Shown here piece after piece: positions 7,796-30,976 of a stretch of 30,976 nt of DNA. This DNA comes from a virus (lineage: Duplodnaviria > Heunggongvirae > Uroviricota > Caudoviricetes), in IMG/VR virus record IMGVR_UViG_3300030444_000240. One strand, 5' to 3'. The position numbers were made by a program, and so were the translations under genes. Numbering within the stretch: position 1 is the stretch's first letter; every line of letters begins with the position of its first letter. The notes under the pieces are model-generated. The model was not told where the DNA came from, ran no database searches, and worked only from the letters and a program-made list of their open reading frames with translations.

Positions 7796-9529
7796 TTAGT
7801 TATCTGACAGATATGATGAGATGGTAGCAGAATCGACACCATGTCCACTTGTCATAATAACTTTAAGACTCTTTATTAGTTCATTCTTGAAGCTATCCGA
7901 TTGCACAGGATTTTTCTCGACCCAATATCGATATGGGTTATCTTTAACTCGCCCTTTTACTTGGGCCTGAAATTGAGTCGTATGTGCAAAATCTTTAAAC
8001 AGTTTTCTAACTATCCCGCCATGGTTTTTGTTAACTTTTTTATAATTATCTATAAGGATTTTTAAATCAATCGGAGCGTTACCAATCTTTAGCGTTGCAA
8101 TTATGTCTTTAGCTGTTTTCATAAAAACAGCTTTTGTAAATTTATTTTTATTTTCCCAATATGCATCATCAGGTGGTAAATTATATAAAAACTCAAAAAT
8201 CATTTGGTCTGGAGGTAAGGTGCTTGGAAGCAAACATAAGTTTTTTTCTTTTTTGGCTTTTTTTGCATTAGCACTATTGTCGTGAACAACATCACCGTCT
8301 AAGACGATCAAGCTTTTAGCTGTAAATTCTGGTATTTTTCTTGCCATTAAGTCAAGCATGGCAGAGCAGCTAATATTTATATTCCCTAATGGATTTAATA
8401 TTTTATTTATTTTTCGATCTGTTATCAATTGTTTGAAAAAGTCGAAACCTTCTTTGTCTTCAAAATATACATTTGCCTTTGGAAGACAAATGTCATCATT
8501 AATTTTTACAGTTTCAACATGTAAATCAGCGTGGATATCTGTCCATGAAAGATTATTCTTTGTTTTAATATCTCCATATGTGTCTGTAAGATATATTGTT
8601 TTAAAGCTATCACTATCTTGTTTTGAACGATTATAGATATCCTCTATTATTAATGGAGAGTGCGAGGTCATGATTATTTGCAGATCGTATTGTTTTGCTG
8701 CTTTAGTTAGAATATTAATTAGCTCTAACTGTGCAGCAGGGAAAAGACCTGCATCGGCTTCATCAATTAACAATATTCCGCCATGATAATCAGAATAAGT
8801 TTCCTTCAATCTTTTAAATGAAAAAATTGCTTGGATTAATTGTCCAACATTATCTTCACCAACAGATACTGATTGGTGATCATAATTGTCACCATGGACA
8901 ACCATTGAATCGATAGTACCTTTTGTTGCTGTTACTGAGCTTCCATTGTTTTTTAGTAAGAGTTGGTTACTCATCATTCTAATTTCATCAGAATTTTCAT
9001 TGATGTACTGAACATCCCGTGTTGAGTAATCAGTCCTTAATGTAATAGGAAGAAGTCGTGCTAAGCTTAAAAAAATAACAGGATGAGTAACGTTTCTACT
9101 TTGGTTTTTTTCCGGTATTGAATCATTTCCCCTGACTACAGGCCTTGATTTATCTCTGTCACTGTAGCTGTATAAACCTAATGTTAGTTTTTCAAGATGT
9201 TTGTTCGATGCACCATCATAGACACTAATTTTGACGTCCATTGAACCAGGAACATCAAATTGTTCTGAAAGCCTAAAATGTTCGCTGAAAGCTGACTTGA
9301 AGCTGCCATTTGTTAATGTTTTATATTGTGTTAAATCAGTCTCAGGGTTTTTGGTAAAGTCCTTTGTAAAGCTAAATATTTGGGCGATAATGCCAAGAAT
9401 TGTGGATTTAGATGTGCCATTTTTACCACAAATAACAGTTAGGCGAGAACCAAACTCGATGTTTATATTTTTCAGTCCGCGAAACTTCACAACATTTATA
9501 TTTTTTAGTTTGGTAATTTGATTTGCCAT
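7796..9529 (-). CDS. OLD-family ATP-dependent nuclease-like protein (ABC ATPase plus C-terminal Toprim-like domain)
   Basis: Walker A ICGKNGTSKST, Walker B ILLIDEAD, TSHSP motif, then C-terminal VYFEDKEGFDFF and LIVLDGD (DxD). Start chosen at MANQITKL (9529), which has a GGAG 9-13 nt upstream and a palindromic hairpin beyond it; the ORF track extends to 9580. Confidence 0.7.
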   Translation of the reverse strand: MANQITKLKNINVVKFRGLKNINIEFGSRLTVICGKNGTSKSTILGIIAQIFSFTKDFTKNPETDLTQYKTLTNGSFKSAFSEHFRLSEQFDVPGSMDVKISVYDGASNKHLEKLTLGLYSYSDRDKSRPVVRGNDSIPEKNQSRNVTHPVIFLSLARLLPITLRTDYSTRDVQYINENSDEIRMMSNQLLLKNNGSSVTATKGTIDSMVVHGDNYDHQSVSVGEDNVGQLIQAIFSFKRLKETYSDYHGGILLIDEADAGLFPAAQLELINILTKAAKQYDLQIIMTSHSPLIIEDIYNRSKQDSDSFKTIYLTDTYGDIKTKNNLSWTDIHADLHVETVKINDDICLPKANVYFEDKEGFDFFKQLITDRKINKILNPLGNINISCSAMLDLMARKIPEFTAKSLIVLDGDVVHDNSANAKKAKKEKNLCLLPSTLPPDQMIFEFLYNLPPDDAYWENKNKFTKAVFMKTAKDIIATLKIGNAPIDLKILIDNYKKVNKNHGGIVRKLFKDFAHTTQFQAQVKGRVKDNPYRYWVEKNPVQSDSFKNELIKSLKVIMTSGHGVDSATISSYLSDN

Positions 9530-9551
9530 GTTTCTATCTTGCTCCGTAAAA

Positions 9552-9570
9552 TGGCCACAAATTGTGGCCA
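9552..9570. other. Perfect 9+1+9 palindrome between the int 3' end and the OLD-like start
   Basis: tggccacaa-a-ttgtggcca; on the minus strand it is followed by ATTTTA. Could be the int terminator or a recombination or regulatory site. Confidence 0.4.
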
Positions 9571-9587
9571 ATAGTTTCATGCTTGGA

Positions 9588-10754
9588 TTATATTGTTATC
9601 TTCTTCAAGCTTGTTTGTCCATCATATTCCTTCAGATATGAGCCATAGTGCCTGAAAAGCATCTCAGGCCCTTTATGCCCCATTTGAGCTGCAAGCCAAA
9701 ACAGGTTTGCTCCCCGGCTGATATGTCTGGTGGCGAATGTATGCCTGGTTTGATATGGGTTTCTGTAACGAATACCTGCTTTTCGCAATGTTGGCACCCA
9801 TGCTTTTTTCCTAATTGCATCAGCACTTGCCCAGGGTTTATTGGTCTTTGGATCTTCAAAGACAGTAGCATCCTTCATGAATGTAAATGGCTTCTGGTTT
9901 ATCAACGCCAACATTGCTTCTTCAGTCAGTTCAACTTTACGGGTACCGGCTTTTGTCTTTGTTCCTTTGATAACTCCGACAACACTTGCGCTCTGAACAT
10001 GGGCTGTTTTTCCAACAAAGTCGATATCATGCCATCGTAGGGCACATAATTCAGAACTACGCAGGCCTGTATGTATGGCGAACCGGAACAGATTTTCCCA
10101 TTGTTTGTTTCCGGCTGCTGCTAGTAATGCATCAACTTCTGCTGGTGATAGCGGATCAACCACATAGCTGCTTTCTGCTTCTGACTTATCACTTTGGTAG
10201 CGCGAAGCAGTTACCAACGATACGGGGTTAATTTGAAGTACCCCATCGGTTACGGCTTCATCAAGTGCTGACCGCAGGAAAGATAACTGGTTGCGAATTG
10301 TTTTTAAGGTCGTTTTCTGGCTTTGAATCCACGCTTTCAGGATTGCTGGTGTTAATTCACTTGCAGGGCAAATGTGGAGTGAGGCTAACGCACTACGGCA
10401 TTTTTTATAACCACCAATCGTAGATGGTGAAAGTTTTCTCGTTTCGCAGATTTCAAGGTATTCGTCCAGGTACATTTTTACCGTTTTGCCTGCAGCAGCA
10501 TTACCAAAAATTTTCAAACGAGCAGAACGGGGAAAATATTCCGCATAAATGAATGTTCCCCTTTCGATCTTATTATGAATTTCGCCGAGTGTGCGCTCGG
10601 CGTATTTAATGTTCTTTGGTGTTACTTCCAGATTGGAAAGAGGCTCACGACATTTAACGCCTTTGTAGGTGAAAGTTATATTGATCGTTTCGCCCTGGCG
10701 GTGTTTCCTGATTGTTACGCCGCGCGGTAGTTTGAGCAGTTTTGTCTGGCCCAT
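9588..10754 (-). CDS. int: Tyrosine site-specific integrase
   Basis: 388 aa; C-terminal catalytic region with RHTFATRH (HxxR) and LFWLAAQMGHKGPEMLFRHYGSY (catalytic Tyr); N-terminal arm-binding-like segment. Confidence 0.9.
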   Translation of the reverse strand: MGQTKLLKLPRGVTIRKHRQGETINITFTYKGVKCREPLSNLEVTPKNIKYAERTLGEIHNKIERGTFIYAEYFPRSARLKIFGNAAAGKTVKMYLDEYLEICETRKLSPSTIGGYKKCRSALASLHICPASELTPAILKAWIQSQKTTLKTIRNQLSFLRSALDEAVTDGVLQINPVSLVTASRYQSDKSEAESSYVVDPLSPAEVDALLAAAGNKQWENLFRFAIHTGLRSSELCALRWHDIDFVGKTAHVQSASVVGVIKGTKTKAGTRKVELTEEAMLALINQKPFTFMKDATVFEDPKTNKPWASADAIRKKAWVPTLRKAGIRYRNPYQTRHTFATRHISRGANLFWLAAQMGHKGPEMLFRHYGSYLKEYDGQTSLKKITI

Positions 10755-23297: not shown

Positions 23298-24024
23298 ATG
23301 CCATACATATGTTCTATCATTTTGGTGTTGAACTCGTTTGATGTCCGAATTGGTAAAGAAGATATTTTATTTAAAAAAGGAAGTGCTGTTCTCATTGATT
23401 ACAATTTAAAAGATTTTTTTTTCATCAAATATAGATCATGCAATGATCGTAGATGTTGAAGAGAAAACAGTTAATGATTTCTTTAAAAGCAACACACTCT
23501 CACCTTTTTCTGTAAGAAGGTTTTATCCGGCATACTTGATGGTGGAATGTGAAGATTTTTCATTGTTAAAGAACTTGATTGCATGCTTGAATTGTGATGG
23601 CAGAACTGTGGATTTTGTTAGAAATCAAATATCACTTGCATGTCTTGCTATCTTATCTTCAGAGAAAATAGTGCAAAGTTTTTTATTTGGATGTCTTAAT
23701 AGTTTAGGAAGTAAAGTTAAGGCTATTATTCACACGGATATATCTGCAGCATGGAGACTTTGTGATATATCTTCAAGACTGTATCTGAGTGAAAGTCTGT
23801 TAAAAGGAAAATTAAAGCACGAAGGCTTATCATTTAGTAAGTTAATTCTTGAAGAGCGAATGGTGATGGCGGAAAGGTTATTAAGCTACAATTTATATTC
23901 TGTTGGAAAAGTTACTGAGATATGCGGTTATGAAAACACGTCATATTTTGTAAGTGTTTTCAGAAGATATTTTGGTGTTCCTCCCCATCAATATTCATCA
24001 AGATTTTTTTTAGAAAAGACATGA
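23298..24024 (+). pseudogene. AraC-family regulator gene interrupted by a frameshift at a T9 tract
   Basis: N-terminal frame (23298-23453) MPYICSIILVLNSFDVRIGKED... and C-terminal frame (23443-24024) with an AraC HTH region (FRRYFGVPPHQY) align to the intact paralog at 29997-30749; the frames meet at T9 (23414-23422), and T8 would restore one ORF. Confidence 0.6.
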
Positions 24025-24217: not shown

Positions 24218-24433
24218 ATGAAATCCATGGATAAGTTAACAACGGGCATTGCCTACGGCACCTCCGCAGGCAGTGCTGGCTACTGGTTTTTACAGCTGCT
24301 CGATAAAGTCACGCCCTCACAGTGGGCAGCAATAGGTGTGCTGGGTAGCTTGGTATTTGGCCTGCTGACGTACCTGACAAACCTTTATTTCAAGATTAAA
24401 GAAGATAAGCGCAAGGCTGCACGGGGAGAGTAA
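24218..24433 (+). CDS. Phage-21-type class II holin (pinholin, S21-like)
   Basis: [26 protein letters not shown]...[19 protein letters not shown] closely matches S21 as recalled, including the dual-start MKSM motif. Confidence 0.85.
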
Positions 24434-24437
24434 TTCA

Positions 24438-24752
24438 ATGACTCAAAACTATGAACTGATTGTGAAAGGGATCCGCAATTTTGAGAATAAAGTTACGGTA
24501 ACTTTAGCGTTACGGGACAAAAAACGCTTTGACGGTGAAATTTTTGACCTGGACATCTCGCTGGACCGTGTTGAAGGTGCCGCGCTGGAGTTTTATGAGG
24601 CAGCAGCCAGAAGGAGCATCAGACAGGTCTTCCTGGATGTTGCTGCCGGGTTATGTGAAGGGGACGAGCTGTTGCCAGAAACGCGCCCCTGTTCAGAGGC
24701 GCGGTATACCATAAAAATTAACAGTTCAGATAACTCGATTACGGGTTGTTAG
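24438..24752 (+). CDS. Hypothetical protein (104 aa) inserted between holin and endolysin
   Basis: ORF with no recognisable motif; its position is unusual for a lysis cassette. Confidence 0.45.
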   Translation: MTQNYELIVKGIRNFENKVTVTLALRDKKRFDGEIFDLDISLDRVEGAALEFYEAAARRSIRQVFLDVAAGLCEGDELLPETRPCSEARYTIKINSSDNSITGC

Positions 24753-24988
24753 CCTTTTGTTTCAGTTGGTTTTCCAATATCTTTCATTGGTAGCAACATT
24801 TCCAGATTGCTTTTGATATATGGATTATTTACATGTTCATTTAATTGATGAATGATTCCATTTTTTTCATTCTGGTCCAATACGGTAAATATTACTGTAA
24901 TCATATATTTAAGAGCTTCAATTTCTTTTGCTGTTGATGCAGGAGATGAGCAGTCAGCTGTAATATTGATAAAAACTTCTTTTTGCAT
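24749..24988 (-). CDS. Hypothetical protein (79 aa), AT-rich, antisense to the lysis operon
   Basis: ORF only; low-GC by eye. Confidence 0.3.
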   Translation of the reverse strand: MQKEVFINITADCSSPASTAKEIEALKYMITVIFTVLDQNEKNGIIHQLNEHVNNPYIKSNLEMLLPMKDIGKPTETKG

Positions 24989-25122: not shown

Positions 25123-25656
25123 ATGAACGTAAAAATCAGATACAGCCTGTCGGCTGCTGTTCTGGCACTGATTGCCGCCAGTGCTCCTGCACCTGACATT
25201 CTCGATCAGTTTCTTGATGAAAAAGAGGGGAATCACACCACTGCATACCGCGATGGCTCCGGCGTATGGACCATCTGTCGGGGAGCAACGATGGTGGACG
25301 GTAAACCTGTTATTCCGGGAATGAAACTGTCGAAGGAAAAATGCGCCCAGGTTAACGCCATTGAGCGGGATAAGGCGCTGGCATGGGTGGAGCGCAATAT
25401 AAAAGTTCCACTGACCGAGCCACAGAAAGCCGGTATCGCGTCATTCTGTCCCTATAACATTGGCCCTGGTAAGTGTTTTCCGTCGACGTTTTATAAGCGG
25501 CTTAATGCCGGTGATCGTAAAGGCGCATGCGAGGCGATTCGCTGGTGGATAAAGGACGGTGGACGTGATTGCCGTATTCGTTCAAATAATTGTTACGGTC
25601 AGGTTATTCGTCGTGACCAGGAGAGTGCATTAACCTGCTGGGGGATAGACCAGTGA
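25123..25656 (+). CDS. SAR endolysin (lysozyme-like, R21-type)
   Basis: N-terminal Ala-rich signal-anchor-release segment [15 protein letters not shown]; E-x8-D-x5-T catalytic triad spacing ([16 protein letters not shown]). Confidence 0.85.
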
Positions 25657-26156
25657 GCCTGTGCTCCCAGCTTATTGTTGCCGCGGTACTAGTGACCAGT
25701 GCGTTTATCGCTGGAAATATATGGTGTAGCCGCGGTTGGGAAAAAAAGTGGGCGGAACGTGACAGCGCGGAATCATCGCAAACAGCGAACGCGCAGACCG
25801 CAGCCCGCATGATTGAACAAGGGCGCATAATTGCCCGTGATGAGGCTGTAAAAGATGCACAAGCACAAGCAGCTAAATCTGCTGCCACTGCTGCTGGCCT
25901 GTCTGCCACTGTTAACCAGCTGCGCACCGAAGCAACAAAGCTTGCCGCCCGCCTGGACGCCGCAAAGCACACCGCAGATCTTGCCGCTGCCGTCAGAAGC
26001 AAAACAGCCGGAGCCGACGCCGCAGTGCTCGCCGACATGCTCGGCCGCCTTACAGAAGAAGCTCGATATTATGCTGAGCGATCTGACGAAAGCTACCGGG
26101 CTGGAATGACGTGTGAGCGCGTTTATGAGTCGGTGAGGACATCAAATTACAATTGA
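25653..26156 (+). CDS. Rz: Rz-like i-spanin
   Basis: N-terminal TM helix, Ala/Gln-rich coiled-coil-like body; start overlaps the endolysin stop. Confidence 0.7.
25855..26109 (+). CDS. Rz1: Rz1-like o-spanin lipoprotein embedded in the +1 frame of Rz
   Basis: Signal peptide with lipobox LLTSC followed by a Pro-rich mature region; nested in Rz as expected. Confidence 0.6.
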
Positions 26157-26251
26157 GTATATAAAGGATATACTTTACATTTTTTCTCTACGTCAATGAT
26201 TTGTAACATGGCCGGTTTAAATAGATTACCTGCCATGTTACTTAATCATTA

Positions 26252-26944
26252 TTATTCAATGGCATCTAAAATTTCATATGCTTCATTAACAAAATCTCTT
26301 ATTTCTTTTAGACATAACTCTACAAAAGGAATGACCTCATAATCTGTACCGTGGAATCTTATTTTTTTCTCTTCGGTTATGTTAATATTGATGGGGATTC
26401 CGTTCCCTGATTTTTCAACTTTACCATTTTCAATGGTGAAGTCTTCAATTCTCTGTCCATTGGTGAAATTATCTCTGAAAATGATTTTTGATGTAGCATC
26501 TGTCTTAATTAATCCAAACCCATTGATATTAACATCTATTCCTCGAACAATACTATCTTCACTCAATGGGATTGGTTTCCTATGTTTTACTTCGTTCGTG
26601 AGGTTACACATCATTCCAAGCCAGTTATTACCAGTTTGATAGTCTTGGATTGAAACAAAAACTGCATATAATGGAGATAATTCAGGTTGCTGGCAGTTTA
26701 ATTTTTTAATAAAGAAAGCATCTAAAAATTTTTTCTCGCCGTATGGGAAATAAATTTTTGGCCGAGGGGTTGATTGGTTAGTGGTATGTTTTTCATAACT
26801 ATCATTCGCAACGTATTCTAATGCGCTTCTTAAATTTTCAAGTATTGATTTAACCTTTACTGGTTTTATTTGTTGCGTATCTTTTAATATTTCAACGGTT
26901 TCTTCAACTTCTTGCAATAAATCTAACGTTCCTTCTCTGGACAT
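26252..26944 (-). CDS. Hypothetical protein (230 aa), AT-rich moron between the lysis cassette and cos
   Basis: ORF of unknown family in low-GC DNA, opposite in orientation to the flanking phage genes. Confidence 0.5.
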   Translation of the reverse strand: MSREGTLDLLQEVEETVEILKDTQQIKPVKVKSILENLRSALEYVANDSYEKHTTNQSTPRPKIYFPYGEKKFLDAFFIKKLNCQQPELSPLYAVFVSIQDYQTGNNWLGMMCNLTNEVKHRKPIPLSEDSIVRGIDVNINGFGLIKTDATSKIIFRDNFTNGQRIEDFTIENGKVEKSGNGIPININITEEKKIRFHGTDYEVIPFVELCLKEIRDFVNEAYEILDAIE

Positions 26945-27059
26945 TCTTAGTCTCCGTTAAGGTTTTGGGGCAAGTTTTTATAACTATTAGATTATCAATT
27001 AAATATTATGCCATATGCTTGCATGTAGTTGAACAGCCAACAAGAAAACAACAAAGCAT

Positions 27060-27287
27060 CTCATTTACGGGTCCTTTCCGGCGATCCGGGCTGTTACGGG
27101 GCGGCGACCTCGCGGGTTTTCGCTATTTATGAAAATTTTCCGGTTTAAGGCATTTCCGTTCTTCTTCGTTGTAACTTAATGTTTTTATTTAAAATACCCC
27201 CTGAAAAGAAAGGAAACGACAGGTGCTGAAAACGAGCTTTTGGGCCTCTGTCGTTTCCTTTCTCTGTTTTTGGCCGTGGAATGAACA
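27060..27287 (+). other. Lambda-type cos site (cosQ-cosN-cosB); cohesive-end sequence GGGCGGCGACCT at 27099-27110
   Basis: ACGGGTCCTTTCCGG...GTTACGGGGCGGCGACCTCGCGGGTTTTCGCTATTTATGAAAATTTTCCGGTTTAAGGC matches the joined lambda ends as recalled, directly upstream of the Nu1 start. Confidence 0.8.
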
Positions 27288-27908
27288 ATGGAAGTCAACA
27301 AAAAGCAGCTGGCTGACATTTTCGGTGCGAGTATCCGTACCATTCAGAACTGGCAGGAACAGGGAATGCCCGTTCTGCGAGGCGGTGGCAAGGGTAATGA
27401 GGTGCTTTATGACTCTGCCGCCGTTATAAAATGGTATGCCGAAAGGGATGCTGAAATTGAGAACGAAAAGCTGCGCCGGGAGGTTGAAGAACTGCGCCAG
27501 GCCAGCGAGGCAGATCTCCAGCCAGGGACTATTGAGTACGAACGCCATCGACTTACGCGTGCGCAGGCCGACGCACAGGAACTGAAGAATGCCAGAGACT
27601 CCGCTGAAGTGGTGGAAACCGCATTCTGTACTTTCGTGCTGTCGCGGATCGCAGGTGAAATTGCCAGTATTCTCGACGGGATCCCCCTGTCGGTGCAGCG
27701 GCGTTTTCCGGAACTGGAAAACCGACATGTTGATTTCCTGAAACGGGATATCATCAAAGCCATGAACAAAGCAGCCGCGCTGGATGAACTGATATTGGTG
27801 CTCATACGCACTCCGTTGCGATTGGTTCACATGGACATACCATCACCGTTAACGCTGCTGGTAACGCGGAAAACACCGTCAAAAACATCGCATTTAACTA
27901 TATTGTGA
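27288..27908 (+). pseudogene. nu1: Terminase small subunit Nu1, 3'-truncated and fused out of frame to the 3' end of a tail fiber gene
   Basis: MEVNKKQLADIFGASIRTIQNWQEQGMPVLRGGGKGNEVLYDSAAVIKWY... matches lambda Nu1 to about residue 169 (AAALDELI); from about 27794 the DNA matches the stf 3' end read in another frame. Confidence 0.8.
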
Positions 27909-28482
27909 GGCTTGCATAATGGCATTCAGAATGAGTGAACAACCACGGACCATAAAAATTTATAATCTGCTGGCCGGAACTAATGAATTTATTGGTGAAG
28001 GTGACGCATATATTCCGCCTCATACAGGTCTGCCAGCAAACAGTACCGATATTGCACCGCCAGATATTCCGGCAGGCTTCGTGGCTGTTTTCAACAGTGA
28101 TGAGGCATCGTGGCATCTCGTTGAAGATCATCGGGGTAAAACGGTTTATGACGTGGCTTCCGGCGACGCGTTATTTATTTCTGAACTCGGTCCGTTACCG
28201 GAAAATGCCACTTGGTTATCCCCGGAAGGGGAGTTTCAGAAGTGGAACGGCACAGCCTGGGTGAAAGATGCAGAAGCAGAAAAACTATTCCGGATCCGGG
28301 AGGCGGAAGAAACAAAAAACAGCCTGATGCAGGCAGCGAATGAGCATATTGCGCCACTTCAGGATGCTGTAGATCTGGAAATCGCAACGGAGGAAGAAAA
28401 CTCGTTGCTGGAAGCCTGGAAAAAGTATCGGGTGTTGCTGAACCGTGTTAATACAACAACTGCTCCGGATATTGAATGGCCA
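27794..28482. repeat. Direct repeat copy 2 (stf 3' end plus tfa), nearly identical by eye to 3141-3838
   Basis: See copy 1; the junction with Nu1 is at about 27794-27796. Confidence 0.8.
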
Positions 28483-28500
28483 GTAGCACCTATAGGGTAA
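27919..28500 (+). CDS. tfa: Tail fiber assembly protein (Tfa), copy 2, intact
   Basis: 193 aa, [74 protein letters not shown]...; nearly identical to copy 1 until the C-terminal tail. Confidence 0.9.
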
Positions 28501-29358
28501 ATTCGTAATGATTACCTAAATACGTTATTCTTTTGTTCAAAAAGTGATTTTGCTATAGGTAGGGAGTATGTTCTTGGATTAAGAATAAAAATCGCCATGA
28601 AAGAGCTTCATGGCGAGTACATAAACGTACAAAATGTGATGAAAGTAGAGTGGCGTAAGCCACTATATTAAGATGTGACAATAGCGAACAAAAGTAAATA
28701 ACATTTTATGGACGTTTAATTGTTAATTATAAAAACTAGAGTGCCCGATATTGTTTATCTTGCTTTAAAATAATGTACTCAAACCAAATTTTTGAGCTAA
28801 AAGCTCAAATAATATAAATGCAATGATAATGTTTAATAAGACAATTAGCTTGCTTTGTATTTTCATTTCGGAATACTGTTAAGTAACTTTGATGACCCTA
28901 ACAATAGATCGGAATTTTCTTAGAGTCAATGGTCACTGTTTTTGTTTGCAAAGCAAATGTTTTGGTGGTTATAAGTTGTCTTAATATAGTCACGCATGCA
29001 ACTTGTTCCATGCGGAGATTAAAGATTGGAATATAACGCGAAGATGGAATTAAATTACATTTGCAATAATCAATTTATTATTACTCAATAATTACCGATA
29101 TTATTATTGTAAATTAATCATTAGAGTGCAAAAAGAAATGTAACGGCAAAATAAGAGGACGATAGCTGAGAAAAAAGCGTGCTTTCCCAATCTGGGGCAA
29201 ATCACGTCTGAATGACACCTGAAAACAGGTAGTAGCCTCAAGAAGGCTTGGAATATTCTTCTTTAATGTTATGTAATTCATTGATTTTTCGTGTACGATT
29301 TTAAGACATTTATTCCAAGAAAAATTTTTAACTCTTTGATTTTTCGACTCTGTATCAT

Positions 29359-29420
29359 CGGTCTCGAAAACCGGAGTAGGGGCAACTCTACCGGGGGTTC
29401 AAATCCCCCTCTCTCCGCCA
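29359..29420 (+). other. 3' 62 nt of tRNA-Ser(CGA) (serU-like): anticodon arm through CCA; prophage att core, not a complete tRNA
   Basis: CGGTCTCGAAAACCGGAGTAGGGGCAACTCTACCGGGGGTTCAAATCCCCCTCTCTCCGCCA has anticodon loop CTCGAAA, a long variable arm and a T-arm; there is no matching acceptor 5' strand or D-arm upstream. Confidence 0.7.
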
Positions 29421-29438
29421 CTTTATCAATGACTTATC

Positions 29439-29491
29439 NNNNNNNNNNNNNNNNNNNNNNNNNNNNNNNNNNNNNNNNNNNNNNNNNNNNN
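29439..29491. other. Assembly gap or masked bases (53 N)
   Basis: Run of n characters 18 nt after the tRNA fragment. Confidence 1.
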
Positions 29492-29996: not shown

Positions 29997-30749
29997 GTGG
30001 ATGATATGGCAACTACATGTTCAGTTATATTGATTTTGGAGTCCTTTGATGTTTATTTCGGAAAAGAGAGTGTGTTTCTGGAGAGAGGTTCATCTGTACT
30101 TGTCGACTCTAGCTCTAGAGATTTTTTCCTGACATATCCTGAAAGAGTGATAGTGGCGGATTTTGGCGCTGAGTTTATTAGTCGCTATTTGAAAGCTAAT
30201 AACTTAAGGGATATTTCTGATTGTAGGGAATATCCATCTTATTTAAAAATAAACTTTGCTGACTTCAGTTTAATTAAAGGATTAATTAGTTGGGCTAATC
30301 ACTGTGCTGAATACATAGAAATTTTTGATGAGTCTATTGCTTTTACATGTCTCTCTGCATTTTCTTCTGAAAAACAATTTGGAGTATTTCTGTTTGAATG
30401 TTTGAAAAGCACAGGGGCTAAAGTTAAAACGATTATTCATACGGATTTATCTGCACCATGGCGTCTTAAGGATATATCATCAAGATTATATCTCAGCGAA
30501 AGTTTACTAAAGAGGAAATTGAAAGAAGAGGGGGTATCATTCAGTAAGATCATACTTGATGAGAGGATGCAAATGGCTGAATATTTACTCTGCACTCGTT
30601 GTTATCCTATTAGTAAAGTAGCTAAGGTCTGTGGTTATGCCAGTGTCTCATACTTTACTTATGTATTTAGACGTTATTTTGGTGTTTCTCCAAGTCAATA
30701 CTCTCAGAGGAGTTCAGAAAGTAAAATTCTTACTCACCAGGGAATCTGA
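29997..30749 (+). CDS. AraC-family transcriptional regulator (AppY/EnvY-like)
   Basis: 250 aa; C-terminal HTH region WRLKDISSRLYLSESLLKRKLKEEGVSFSKIILDERMQMAEYLL ... YFTYVFRRYFGVSPSQY. Confidence 0.8.
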   Translation: MDDMATTCSVILILESFDVYFGKESVFLERGSSVLVDSSSRDFFLTYPERVIVADFGAEFISRYLKANNLRDISDCREYPSYLKINFADFSLIKGLISWANHCAEYIEIFDESIAFTCLSAFSSEKQFGVFLFECLKSTGAKVKTIIHTDLSAPWRLKDISSRLYLSESLLKRKLKEEGVSFSKIILDERMQMAEYLLCTRCYPISKVAKVCGYASVSYFTYVFRRYFGVSPSQYSQRSSESKILTHQGI

Positions 30750-30753
30750 TCAT

Positions 30754-30976
30754 TGTTCTTGCCCCCTTATTTCCAGACAGGGGGTGTATCTTAAGTTAAC
30801 GTTACCCGCTGACGTCGATATTCTCGCGGAGAGCGATAACCCAACGCACTGTGCGGATGGTTTTCATTGTAATGTTCGATCGCCACTGCAAGATTATGCA
30901 ATGCCGTTCTTACATTCGGTTTCGGCATGAACGCGATGTAGTCTTCCTTCATCGTTTTCACGAACCTTTCTGCCAT
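30754..30976 (-). mobile_element. IS3-family (IS2-like) element, partial: terminal inverted repeat and transposase C-terminus; continues beyond the window
   Basis: The minus-strand ORF ends ...[55 protein letters not shown], like the IS2 InsD C-terminus as recalled; flanking DNA (...GCCCCCTTATTTCCAGACA..., ...GAGCGATAACCCAACGCACTGTGCGGATG...) resembles the IS2 end. Confidence 0.7.

What the first reader, a model, noticed from the sequence alone, without database searches (positions are those of the whole stretch)
26252..26944. AT-rich 230-aa gene of unknown function between Rz/Rz1 and cos
It is oriented opposite to the flanking phage genes, has low GC and no recognisable domain, and sits in the slot where lambdoid phages often carry morons (bor-type) or defense genes.
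Basis: inference. Interest (0 to 1): 0.5.

Follow-up and report, generated by a model that had tools for sequence, protein, structure and literature searches.

The report
Stand-alone prophage gene, likely anti-phage defence
This is a real, well-conserved but unnamed single gene carried backwards in the 'bor slot' of a decayed lambda-like prophage; its protein looks like a HEPN-type RNA-cutting fold with an unusual active-site motif and is most likely a one-protein anti-phage defence, which nobody has yet tested.

Summary
A 230-aa ORF at 26252-26944 (-) has GC 0.32 against flanks of 0.50-0.61. It is antisense to the late genes and lies between Rz/Rz1 and cos (27099-27110). Pfam, NCBIfam and PADLOC give no usable match.

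It is a real gene: pN is about 0.2 while synonymous sites are saturated, and dN/dS is about 0.1. It belongs to an unnamed family of at least 672 clusters at 50% identity, spread across several phyla.

In enterobacterial prophages it sits in the same place: antisense between the lysis and packaging modules in 26 of 31 IMG/VR contigs. DLP12 carries bor in that slot. No partner gene is conserved. In Vibrio parahaemolyticus a homologue is a one-ORF integron cassette.

The exact protein (WP_073528137.1) is listed by DefensePredictor as a predicted novel defence gene (log-odds 10.4). I found no experimental test.

Best reading: a self-contained sensor-effector defence protein with an atypical HEPN-like core. 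Defence is about 0.55-0.6 likely. RNase chemistry is about 0.3.

The parts
26252..26944 (-). Coding sequence for a 230-aa (26.5 kDa, pI 5.1) soluble cytoplasmic protein, identical to WP_073528137.1. Predicted layout: helix 1 residues 3-23, helix 2 28-53, helix-rich linker 54-107, helix 3 108-120 ending in N117-x2-K120-H121, beta insert 122-200, helix 4 204-228.
   Evidence: ORF. Annotated CDS in E. coli S43. AlphaFold2 model with pLDDT 89.3. No transmembrane segment or signal peptide (maximum Kyte-Doolittle 19-residue score 0.64, acidic N-terminus). Purifying selection.
26945..26955 (-). Ribosome-binding region: GGAG at 26955-26952, 7 nt before the ATG at 26944.
   Evidence: Read from the sequence. 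A purine-rich GGAG/GGTG/AGGAG box lies just upstream of the ATG in homologous loci.
26977..27033 (-). Candidate promoter region carried with the gene. A TAGTTATAA box (26986-26978) has TATAAA as a -10-like hexamer. A second, window-specific candidate is TTCAAC-17 nt-TGgCATAAT (27033-27005). Neither has been mapped.
   Evidence: TAGnTATAA(A/C/G) is conserved about 30 nt upstream of the ribosome-binding site in the window and in E. coli, Enterobacter and Cronobacter loci from different phages. The strict consensus scan listed no site upstream of the start codon.
26203..26241 (.). Strong hairpin directly after the stop codon, between the convergent Rz and this gene. It looks like a terminator, possibly working in both directions.
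   Evidence: 14-nt arms, 93% complementary. RNA fold -23.8 kcal/mol, z = -5.2, and 0 of 200 shuffles fold as well.
26157..27060 (.). The low-GC accessory ('moron') cassette, filling the gap between the Rz stop codon and the conserved cos/Nu1 leader.
   Evidence: GC profile. Thousands of E. coli genomes match only from window position 27061 onwards, and only 5 of 5426 match the cassette. In DLP12 the equivalent interval carries bor, ybcV, ybcW and ylcI.
27099..27110 (+). cos cohesive-end sequence. It is context only and marks the right edge of the slot.
   Evidence: Exact GGGCGGCGACCT match.
25653..26156 (+). Rz-type spanin (DUF2514) with the embedded Rz1-like ORF at 25855-26109. It is context only and marks the left edge of the slot.

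Best explanation
The ORF is an intact, self-contained accessory gene (a moron). It has its own ribosome-binding site, promoter-like box and terminator hairpin, and it is inserted antisense in the lysis-to-cos slot of a defective lambdoid prophage.

Its product is a soluble cytoplasmic protein that works alone. The core is a HEPN-like four-helix bundle. A conserved polar site is formed by helix 2 (K32, E36, R39, S40, E/D43, Y44, D48), by the helix 2-3 linker (F66-P67-Y68, Q100) and by the end of helix 3 (N117, K120, H121). A fast-evolving beta module of 58-106 residues is inserted right after that motif.

Most likely mechanism: a single-protein anti-phage defence of the abortive-infection type.
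1. The protein is made in the lysogen and rests inactive.
2. The variable beta module, or a surface of an oligomer, recognises a phage-made trigger.
3. The conserved site, probably completed across a dimer as in other HEPN enzymes, then cuts an essential RNA such as a tRNA anticodon loop, mRNA or rRNA. No metal is needed.
4. Translation stops and the infection fails.

Shown here: the gene is real and under purifying selection. Its slot is conserved. It has no conserved partner. It moves as a single gene, including as an integron cassette. The predicted fold is HEPN-like and the motif sits at the HEPN active-site position.

Inferred: expression in the lysogen, the defence phenotype, RNase chemistry, oligomerisation and the sensing role of the beta insert.
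For: Gene and selection:
- Real ORF; dN/dS about 0.1 against saturated synonymous sites.

Slot:
- Antisense between lysis and packaging genes in Enterobacter, E. coli, Cronobacter and Raoultella prophages with Nu1/GpA, DUF1441/GpA or HNH+Terminase_4 packaging modules.
- The same arrangement in 26 of 31 IMG/VR contigs.
- The slot is equivalent to that of bor.
- The surrounding prophage is decayed (truncated nohA, a tail-fibre fragment, IS elements) yet the gene is intact.

Solo unit:
- Neighbours in more than 20 distant genomes are unrelated housekeeping, phage or defence genes, with no recurring partner.
- The V. parahaemolyticus homologue is a single-ORF integron cassette bounded by attC-type repeats at L045 7862-7984 and 8718-8838. 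The same chromosome holds two copies.
- At least one third of the mobile-integron cassettes of unknown function tested by Kieffer et al. conferred phage resistance.

Fold:
- AlphaFold2 pLDDT 89.3.

Motif:
- H121 is invariant, K120 is present in 200 of 201 sequences and N117 in 191 of 201.
- The motif lies at the end of helix 3. Anantharaman et al. place Rx4-6H there, usually with N after the R, and note inserts between helices 2 and 3, a conserved acidic residue in helix 2, a family that 'lacks R but H is conserved', and a beta hairpin right after the motif in Csx1.

Architecture:
- Helices 2 and 3 are the most conserved parts (1.8 bits entropy). The beta insert is the most variable (3.05 bits, length 58-106).

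Independent prediction:
- WP_073528137.1 is listed in DefensePredictor Table S10 as 'Predicted novel defense gene', mean log-odds 10.38 (range 8.4-12.9). The strict cut-off is 4, the overall validation rate was 45% and it rose with score.

Precedent:
- HepS is a solo prophage HEPN protein that senses a phage protein and cuts tRNA.
Against: - No experiment exists. I found no family member among the validated DefensePredictor proteins.
- PADLOC has no model for it.
- No sequence or profile search reaches any HEPN family.
- The defining arginine of Rx4-6H is absent in all 201 sequences examined; position 116 is T in 164 of them. The domain could therefore be non-catalytic.
- The helix-2 acid/base pair is spaced E-x2-R, not E-x3-[KR].
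- The very low GC could mean H-NS silencing rather than steady expression (my own knowledge, not tested).
- Many distant members sit among housekeeping genes. In Neisseria one sits inside a transporter operon. That placement is not typical of defence islands.
Confidence: 0.45

Rival explanations
1. A non-catalytic HEPN-like binding protein. The conserved polar face binds a nucleotide, an RNA or a phage or host protein. It would act by sequestration or regulation, for example superinfection exclusion, blocking a phage assembly or packaging step, or repressing translation, rather than by cutting RNA.
For: - The catalytic arginine of Rx4-6H is missing throughout the family.
- HEPN domains that have lost the motif are documented as substrate-binding or regulatory modules, for example those fused to nucleotidyltransferases and MtlR.
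- The gene lies next to the packaging module in prophages.
Against: - An invariant histidine, with an invariant neighbouring lysine and a conserved asparagine at the exact HEPN catalytic position, fits chemistry better than binding alone.
- The same gene works as a lone integron cassette and in non-phage contexts, so it cannot depend on a specific resident phage partner.
Confidence: 0.2
2. A stand-alone toxin or stress-response effector, or a selfish addiction-type gene, kept on mobile elements for reasons unrelated to phage infection. Examples would be growth arrest under stress or stabilising the element.
For: - It spreads horizontally as a single gene into prophages, integron arrays and chromosomal sites across phyla.
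- Integron arrays are rich in toxin-antitoxin genes; a ParE toxin cassette lies next door in L045.
- The fold is HEPN-like, as in HepT and RnlA toxins.
Against: - No antitoxin-sized partner ORF is conserved. The cassette space is filled by the single ORF, and the upstream gaps in prophages are as short as 88-110 nt. An unguarded, constitutively active toxin could not be maintained.
- DefensePredictor scores it as defensive.
Confidence: 0.12
3. A phage-benefit gene, either a counter-defence protein or a lysogeny or late-stage accessory factor that serves the prophage rather than the host.
For: - It is conserved in one slot of many prophages.
- It belongs to PHROG 13652.
Against: - It is antisense to the late operon, with its own promoter-like box and terminator. 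It stays intact in a prophage that has lost its head and tail genes.
- Homologues live outside phages, in integrons and chromosomal loci.
- tblastn found no match in 50,697 deposited phage genomes.
Confidence: 0.08

Closest known systems
HepS (STM14_3211) of Salmonella prophage Gifsy-1, the 'HEPN Solo' abortive-infection protein (Sargen et al., Nature 2026, PMC13043305)
   Same: - A single prophage-encoded cytoplasmic protein of similar size class (standalone homologues were limited to 250 aa or fewer) with no partner or antitoxin gene.
- It sits in an accessory-gene slot of a lambdoid prophage.
- Proposed logic: inactive at rest, triggered by a phage protein, cuts tRNA.
   Different: - HepS has a canonical R100-x4-H105 motif; this family has T-N-x2-K-H with no arginine.
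- The slot differs: replication-to-antirepressor for HepS, lysis-to-cos here.
- This family has a large beta insert after the motif.
- HepS has been tested experimentally; this gene has not.
HEPN superfamily variants described by Anantharaman et al. 2013 (PMC3710099): Parep1/8 ('lacks R but H is conserved') and Csx1 (beta hairpin right after the motif)
   Same: - A four-helix bundle with an insert between helices 2 and 3.
- A conserved histidine at the end of helix 3.
- Conserved charged residues in helix 2.
- A precedent for losing the arginine while keeping the histidine.
- A precedent for a beta element inserted directly after the motif.
   Different: - No profile-level similarity to any Pfam HEPN family.
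- The beta element here is a whole module of about 80 residues, not a hairpin.
- K120 next to the histidine is invariant, which is not described for those families.
Bor, the serum-resistance lipoprotein of lambda and DLP12
   Same: It occupies the same slot, directly after Rz/Rz1, transcribed antisense to the late operon as an independently expressed moron.
   Different: - Bor is a 97-aa secreted lipoprotein.
- This protein is 230 aa, acidic and soluble, with no signal peptide or lipobox.
- There is no sequence similarity.
Integron-cassette phage-defence genes (BRiCs of mobile integrons, Kieffer et al.; Vibrio superintegron cassettes, Darracq et al., Getz et al.)
   Same: The V. parahaemolyticus homologue is a bona fide-looking single-ORF cassette flanked by attC-type repeats. 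Its array also holds a SduA_C (Shedu-type) cassette, a ParE cassette and a T5orf172 cassette. Such cassettes often confer phage resistance.
   Different: None of the papers I could read names or tests this family. Getz et al. 2025 and Darracq et al. 2025 are not in the library.

Membership tests
HEPN superfamily | Up-down four-helix bundle of about 100-120 core residues, often with an insert between helices 2 and 3 | tested here: met
   - AlphaFold2 model, pLDDT 89: helices 3-23, 28-53, 108-120 and 204-228, with a helix-rich linker at 54-107.
- This rests on a predicted structure, not a solved one.
HEPN superfamily | Rx4-6H motif at the end of helix 3 or the start of the helix 3-4 loop, usually with N, D or H after the R | tested here: not met
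   - The histidine (H121, 201 of 201 sequences) and the asparagine (N117, 191 of 201) are at that position.
- The arginine position (116) is T in 164 of 201 and never R. No R lies 4-6 residues before H121.
- The motif is therefore only partly present (H and N), as in the 'lacks R but H is conserved' Parep1/8 family.
HEPN superfamily | Second conserved acidic residue in helix 2, typically E-x3-[KR] | tested here: inconclusive
   Helix 2 carries conserved E36 (179 of 201), R39 (194), E/D43 (200) and D48 (179), but the spacing is E-x2-R.
HEPN superfamily | Sequence or profile similarity to an established HEPN family | tested here: not met
   - No Pfam or NCBIfam hit for the protein at E<=1.
- No HEPN family among the 25 most-matched families listed when 53 members were scanned at E<=0.1.
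- No HEPN chain in PDB sequence or profile searches at E<=10.
- HHpred-type profile-profile searches against Pfam or the PDB could not be run.
HEPN superfamily | Metal-independent RNase activity from a composite dimer active site | not testable with these tools
   This needs biochemistry or a multimer model. The structure tool takes single chains only.
HepS family (solo HEPN Abi of Gifsy-1) | Homology to STM14_3211 with R100-x4-H105 | tested here: not met
   - The canonical motif is absent.
- I could not retrieve the HepS sequence itself: the LT2 Gifsy-1 record holds no ORF with R100/H105.
Anti-phage defence system (functional class) | Measured protection against phage when expressed | not testable with these tools
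   I found no experiment. There were no matches to family motifs or accessions in the DefensePredictor supplementary tables held, which include the validated proteins. Some of those tables were cut when stored.
Anti-phage defence system (functional class) | Recognised by defence predictors | tested here: inconclusive
   - PADLOC-DB 2.0: only a 12-bit BrxC match, E 0.007, judged spurious.
- DefensePredictor (published table): predicted_defensive TRUE, mean log-odds 10.38, 'Predicted novel defense gene'; the strict cut-off is 4.
Anti-phage defence system (functional class) | Resides in mobile-element accessory hotspots or defence-rich arrays | tested here: met
   - Prophage lysis-to-packaging slot in 26 of 31 viral contigs.
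- Vibrio superintegron cassette next to a SduA_C cassette, a ParE cassette and a T5orf172 cassette.
- Many distant members, however, lie among housekeeping genes.
Type II toxin-antitoxin module | Adjacent co-oriented partner (antitoxin) gene conserved with the toxin | tested here: not met
   - No recurrent neighbour across more than 20 loci from different taxa.
- The single ORF fills the integron cassette.
- Only 88-110 nt lie upstream in several prophages.
Bor-type lipoprotein moron | Signal peptide with lipobox; small outer-membrane lipoprotein | tested here: not met
   Acidic N-terminus, maximum hydropathy 0.64, 230 aa. Only the genomic slot is shared.

The most novel reading that the evidence does not exclude
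This is the founding, so far unnamed, member of a new catalytic branch of HEPN-like enzymes. The classical arginine has been replaced by a different constellation: N-x2-K-H at the end of helix 3, plus R39, S40 and E43 from helix 2 and Q100 from the linker. A hypervariable beta module inserted right after the motif serves as the phage sensor. The family would be a widespread one-protein immune gene that moves between phyla as a prophage moron, an integron cassette and a lone chromosomal insertion.
Probability: 0.3. Interest if true: 0.7.

Novelty: new variant of a known kind. Interest (0 to 1): 0.55.

Why it matters
- If the prediction holds, this is a compact single-gene immune protein of about 26 kDa. 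No database names it, and defence annotators based on known models (PADLOC here) miss it.
- It occurs in about 2% of complete E. coli genomes, in many Enterobacter, Citrobacter, Cronobacter and Vibrio strains, and in distant phyla.
- Its motif would show how HEPN-type chemistry can work without the signature arginine.
- The conserved core with a variable beta module makes a simple model for how a lone protein both senses a phage and kills the infection.
- It gives a concrete, testable case for the idea that the lysis-to-cos slot of lambdoid prophages is a defence hotspot.
- It links prophage morons with integron cassettes as carriers of the same gene.

Tried and rejected
- PADLOC gave only BrxC at 12 bits over 45 residues, which I treated as spurious.
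- tblastn against 50,697 deposited phage genomes found nothing, although IMG/VR prophage contigs do carry the gene.
- PDB sequence and profile searches gave only chance hits.
- Foldseek against the PDB gave nothing significant. The papillomavirus E2, NusG and DUF1312 matches have E>0.1.
- BFVD gave one unnamed viral protein, A0A514TZW7 (E 3e-4), which I could not follow up.
- The afdb50 library was unavailable.
I used a degenerate DNA pattern for W-L-x2-[LM]-C-x-L-T-N-x2-K-H instead. Of its 30 hits, 25 proved to be family members.
- Looked for a partner gene by clustering neighbours. Only same-genus Neisseria synteny appeared.
- Looked for informative domain fusions. The only finds were a sub-threshold DUF6941 tail on one 370-aa member and probable mis-called N-terminal extensions.
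- Tried to fetch HepS from the Gifsy-1 (LT2) record for a profile comparison. No matching ORF was present.
- Brenes & Laub 2025 and Getz et al. 2025 are not held. I therefore cannot exclude that a homologue was tested there.
- The idea that it is a Bor-like surface protein was rejected on sequence grounds.

Full report
**1. Observation**

The window holds a 693-nt ORF at 26252-26944 on the minus strand, with an ATG start and a 230-aa product. GC is 0.31-0.35 across it. The lysis genes to its left have 0.50-0.61 and Nu1 to its right has 0.46-0.56.

All flanking phage genes are on the plus strand:
- holin 24218-24433
- a YdfR-like gene 24438-24752
- lysozyme 25123-25656
- Rz (DUF2514) 25653-26156, with an embedded Rz1-like lipoprotein ORF at 25855-26109
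- a Nu1/nohA-like gene 27288-27908
- a tail-fibre assembly gene 27919-28500

The lambda cohesive-end sequence GGGCGGCGACCT lies at 27099-27110. Pfam and NCBIfam give nothing at E<=1. PADLOC gives only a 12-bit BrxC match. PHROG 13652 ('unknown function') matches end to end.

**2. Where the window comes from**

The 1.2 kb around the gene is 100% identical to E. coli S43 and NCTC11023. There it is annotated 'hypothetical protein' (WP_073528137.1) inside a decayed lambdoid prophage. That prophage has a truncated DNA-packaging gene, a tail-fibre fragment, IS elements and no head or tail genes.

Only 5 of 5426 complete E. coli genomes carry this allele. In one of them the match is split by an IS1 element, and a truncated 170-aa cluster member is recorded on a contig of that chromosome's length. 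A further 98 genomes carry an allele about 69% identical in DNA. That makes 103 genomes (1.9%), always chromosomal, single-copy and annotated as hypothetical.

Thousands of genomes match only from window position 27061 onwards, which is the cos/Nu1 leader. The accessory cassette is therefore roughly 26157-27060.

**3. It is a real gene under selection**

Homologues form 66 clusters at 90% identity in Enterobacteriaceae. A profile search of 1.84 billion representatives finds 672 clusters at 50% identity with E<=1e-3, nearly all 220-250 aa.

Between enterobacterial alleles, synonymous sites are saturated (pS 0.69-0.79) while pN is 0.16-0.23. dN/dS is about 0.1 where it can be computed. All alleles keep GC 0.32-0.34.

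**4. Local anatomy**

- A GGAG box lies 7 nt before the ATG.
- A TAGnTATAA(A/C/G) box about 30 nt upstream of the ribosome-binding site is conserved in four loci from different phages and genera. It is a plausible -10 element carried with the gene. The strict consensus scan listed no site upstream of the start codon.
- Directly after the stop codon is a strong hairpin at 26203-26241 (-23.8 kcal/mol, z = -5.2). It sits between the convergent Rz and this gene.

These features fit an autonomously expressed moron. Expression itself was not shown.

**5. Conserved slot**

In Enterobacter, E. coli, Cronobacter and Raoultella prophages the gene is always a lone antisense gene between the spanin or endolysin and the packaging module. 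That module may be Nu1/GpA, DUF1441/GpA or HNH+Terminase_4/TerL.

Among 31 IMG/VR contigs with a family member, 26 have a packaging-side gene on the 5' side and a lysis gene on the 3' side. All of those neighbours are on the opposite strand. In some loci the neighbour is another moron, a 485-aa glycosyltransferase (PHROG 1579).

In a DLP12-type prophage the same interval holds bor, ybcV, ybcW and ylcI. The 'bor slot' reading is correct.

**6. The gene works as a single unit and travels widely**

A degenerate DNA pattern for the conserved motif, confirmed by hmmsearch, found members in:
- Bacteroidota, Neisseria, Marinobacter, Oceanobacter, Rheinheimera and Shewanella
- Acinetobacter, Deinococcales, a Faecalimonas (Firmicutes) MAG and a Pontiellaceae MAG
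- a Woesearchaeota MAG

Profile hits add Vibrio, Photobacterium, Aeromonas, Providencia and a Thermoleophilia MAG. All are 'hypothetical protein' without Pfam domains.

Their neighbours are unrelated to one another: ABC transporter and AMP-binding enzyme genes, amidohydrolase, SpoU methylase, methylmalonyl-CoA mutase, DnaG, a Mu-like prophage, a P2-type scaffold gene, and a few defence-type genes. No partner recurs.

In V. parahaemolyticus the 239-aa homologue (339 contigs) is a one-ORF cassette of the chromosomal integron. It is bounded by attC-type repeats of about 120 nt at L045 7862-7984 and 8718-8838, and it occurs twice in one chromosome. Neighbouring cassettes include SduA_C, ParE, T5orf172 and acetyltransferases. 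The literature I could read reports that at least a third of the mobile-integron cassettes of unknown function tested confer phage resistance.

**7. The protein**

It is acidic (pI 5.1) and soluble, with no signal peptide or membrane segment. The AlphaFold2 model built on 33 homologues has mean pLDDT 89.3. It shows helices at 3-23, 28-53, 108-120 and 204-228, a helix-rich linker at 54-107, and a beta module at 122-200.

Over 201 family sequences, these residues are invariant or nearly so:
- K32, E36, R39, S40, L42, E/D43, Y44 and D48, along one face of helix 2
- F66-P67-Y68 and Q100 in the linker
- W108, C113, T116, N117, K120 and H121 at the end of helix 3

Helices 2 and 3 are the least variable parts (1.8 bits). 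The beta module is the most variable (3.05 bits, length 58-106 residues).

**8. Comparison with the HEPN definition**

Anantharaman et al. 2013 give these features:
- The residue after R is usually N, D or H.
- Inserts between helices 2 and 3 are typical.
- A conserved acidic residue in helix 2 lies next to the motif.
- Parep1/8 'lacks R but H is conserved'.
- Csx1 has a beta hairpin right after the motif.

Here T116-N117-x2-K120-H121 is in register with R-N-x3-H at exactly that structural position. There is a linker between helices 2 and 3, a charged helix 2, and a beta element after the motif. The arginine is never present.

No sequence or profile search reaches any HEPN family. I therefore describe the protein as HEPN-like in fold and in motif placement. 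I do not file it as a proven member.

**9. Literature**

DefensePredictor (Science 2026) lists this exact accession in its table of predictions for 3,000 E. coli strains. It gives a mean log-odds of 10.38 (minimum 8.37, maximum 12.92) and the label 'Predicted novel defense gene', with no known-defence homologue. The strict cut-off is 4. 45% of cloned predictions protected against phage, and the rate rose with score.

I found no family motif or accession in the supplementary tables held, which include the validated proteins. Some of those tables are stored truncated.

HepS of Gifsy-1 is the closest functional precedent. It is a solo prophage HEPN protein, inactive at rest, activated by siphovirus tail-tip proteins, and it cuts tRNA anticodon loops. 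HepS has a canonical R100-x4-H105 and I found no detectable relationship to this family.

**10. Interpretation**

The evidence best fits a self-contained, horizontally mobile, host-benefit gene. Its most likely role is single-protein anti-phage defence, with a conserved HEPN-like effector site and a variable beta module as sensor.

My estimates:
- defence role: about 0.55-0.6
- RNase mechanism: about 0.3
- combined statement: 0.45

Rivals are a non-catalytic binding or exclusion protein (0.2), a phage-unrelated toxin or stress effector (0.12) and a phage-benefit or counter-defence factor (0.08).

**11. Novelty and score**

The family has no name, no Pfam model and no experimental data. Solo HEPN defence proteins are a known kind. 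This would be a new variant, with an atypical motif and a new inserted module.

Interest is 0.55. That is solid for a defence-systems specialist and directly testable, but it is not a categorical surprise. The prediction that it is a defence gene is already in a published supplementary table.

Noticed in passing
window 24749-24988 (-): A second low-GC (about 0.32) antisense ORF of 79 aa lies between the YdfR-like gene and the lysozyme. It is annotated hypothetical (WP_032264896.1) and matches PHROG 21218 (unknown function) full length. It may be another small moron inside the lysis cassette.
   Followed up: partly
window 23299-24024 (+) and 29997-30749 (+): Two low-GC (0.31-0.36) AraC-family regulator genes. 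One sits between the Q antiterminator region and the holin; the other lies beyond the tail-fibre assembly gene. Their C-terminal halves look like paralogues of each other (both contain '...KTIIHTD(I/L)SA(A/P)WRL.DISSRLYLSESLLK...').
   Followed up: no
window 29341-29420 (+) and 29460-29491: A sequence resembling the 3' two-thirds of a tRNA-Ser (…GGTCTCGAAAACCGGAG…GGTTCAAATCCCCCTCTCTCCGCCA) with no 5' half. ARAGORN calls no tRNA in the window. It is followed by a run of 32 N. It is probably a prophage attachment-site remnant next to a masked stretch.
   Followed up: partly
window 27288-27908 (+) and 27919-28500 (+): The Nu1-like ORF runs straight into unrelated sequence and is followed directly by a tail-fibre assembly gene. 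All of the terminase large subunit, head and tail genes are missing. In S43 the corresponding genes are annotated as incomplete. The window also differs from S43 by about 63 bp in this stretch, so it comes from a different but close strain.
   Followed up: partly
L002/L003/L004 6455-7912 (-) and 5381-5971 (-): In Enterobacter prophages the slot next to the family gene also holds a 485-aa glycosyltransferase (PHROG 1579) and a 196-aa glucosyltransferase (PHROG 854), both classed as morons. There is also an unannotated gap of about 1.3 kb (8690-10001) between the family gene and the spanin.
   Followed up: partly
L013 2439-3152, L030 2238-2951, L039 2224-2934 (all -): In Neisseria the family gene sits between an AMP-binding enzyme gene and an ABC-transporter ATPase gene on the same strand. 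Its end overlaps the ATPase start by 4 nt, as if it were embedded in an operon. That is an odd setting for a defence gene.
   Followed up: partly
L044 and L045 (CP045794.1, 1.92-1.96 Mb): The same V. parahaemolyticus chromosome carries two identical copies of the family cassette about 15 kb apart in its superintegron. In L044 one is next to a SduA_C (Shedu-type) cassette. In L045 one is next to a ParE toxin cassette.
   Followed up: partly
L006 15139-16488 (-): The E. coli prophage carrying the 62%-identical allele also encodes a 449-aa protein with AF_1680 and weak DUF4145 hits, near a hok/gef gene. It may be a second defence-type accessory gene in the same prophage.
   Followed up: no
window 30791-30976 (-): The window ends inside an IS3-type integrase-core fragment, annotated as incomplete in S43.
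   Followed up: no
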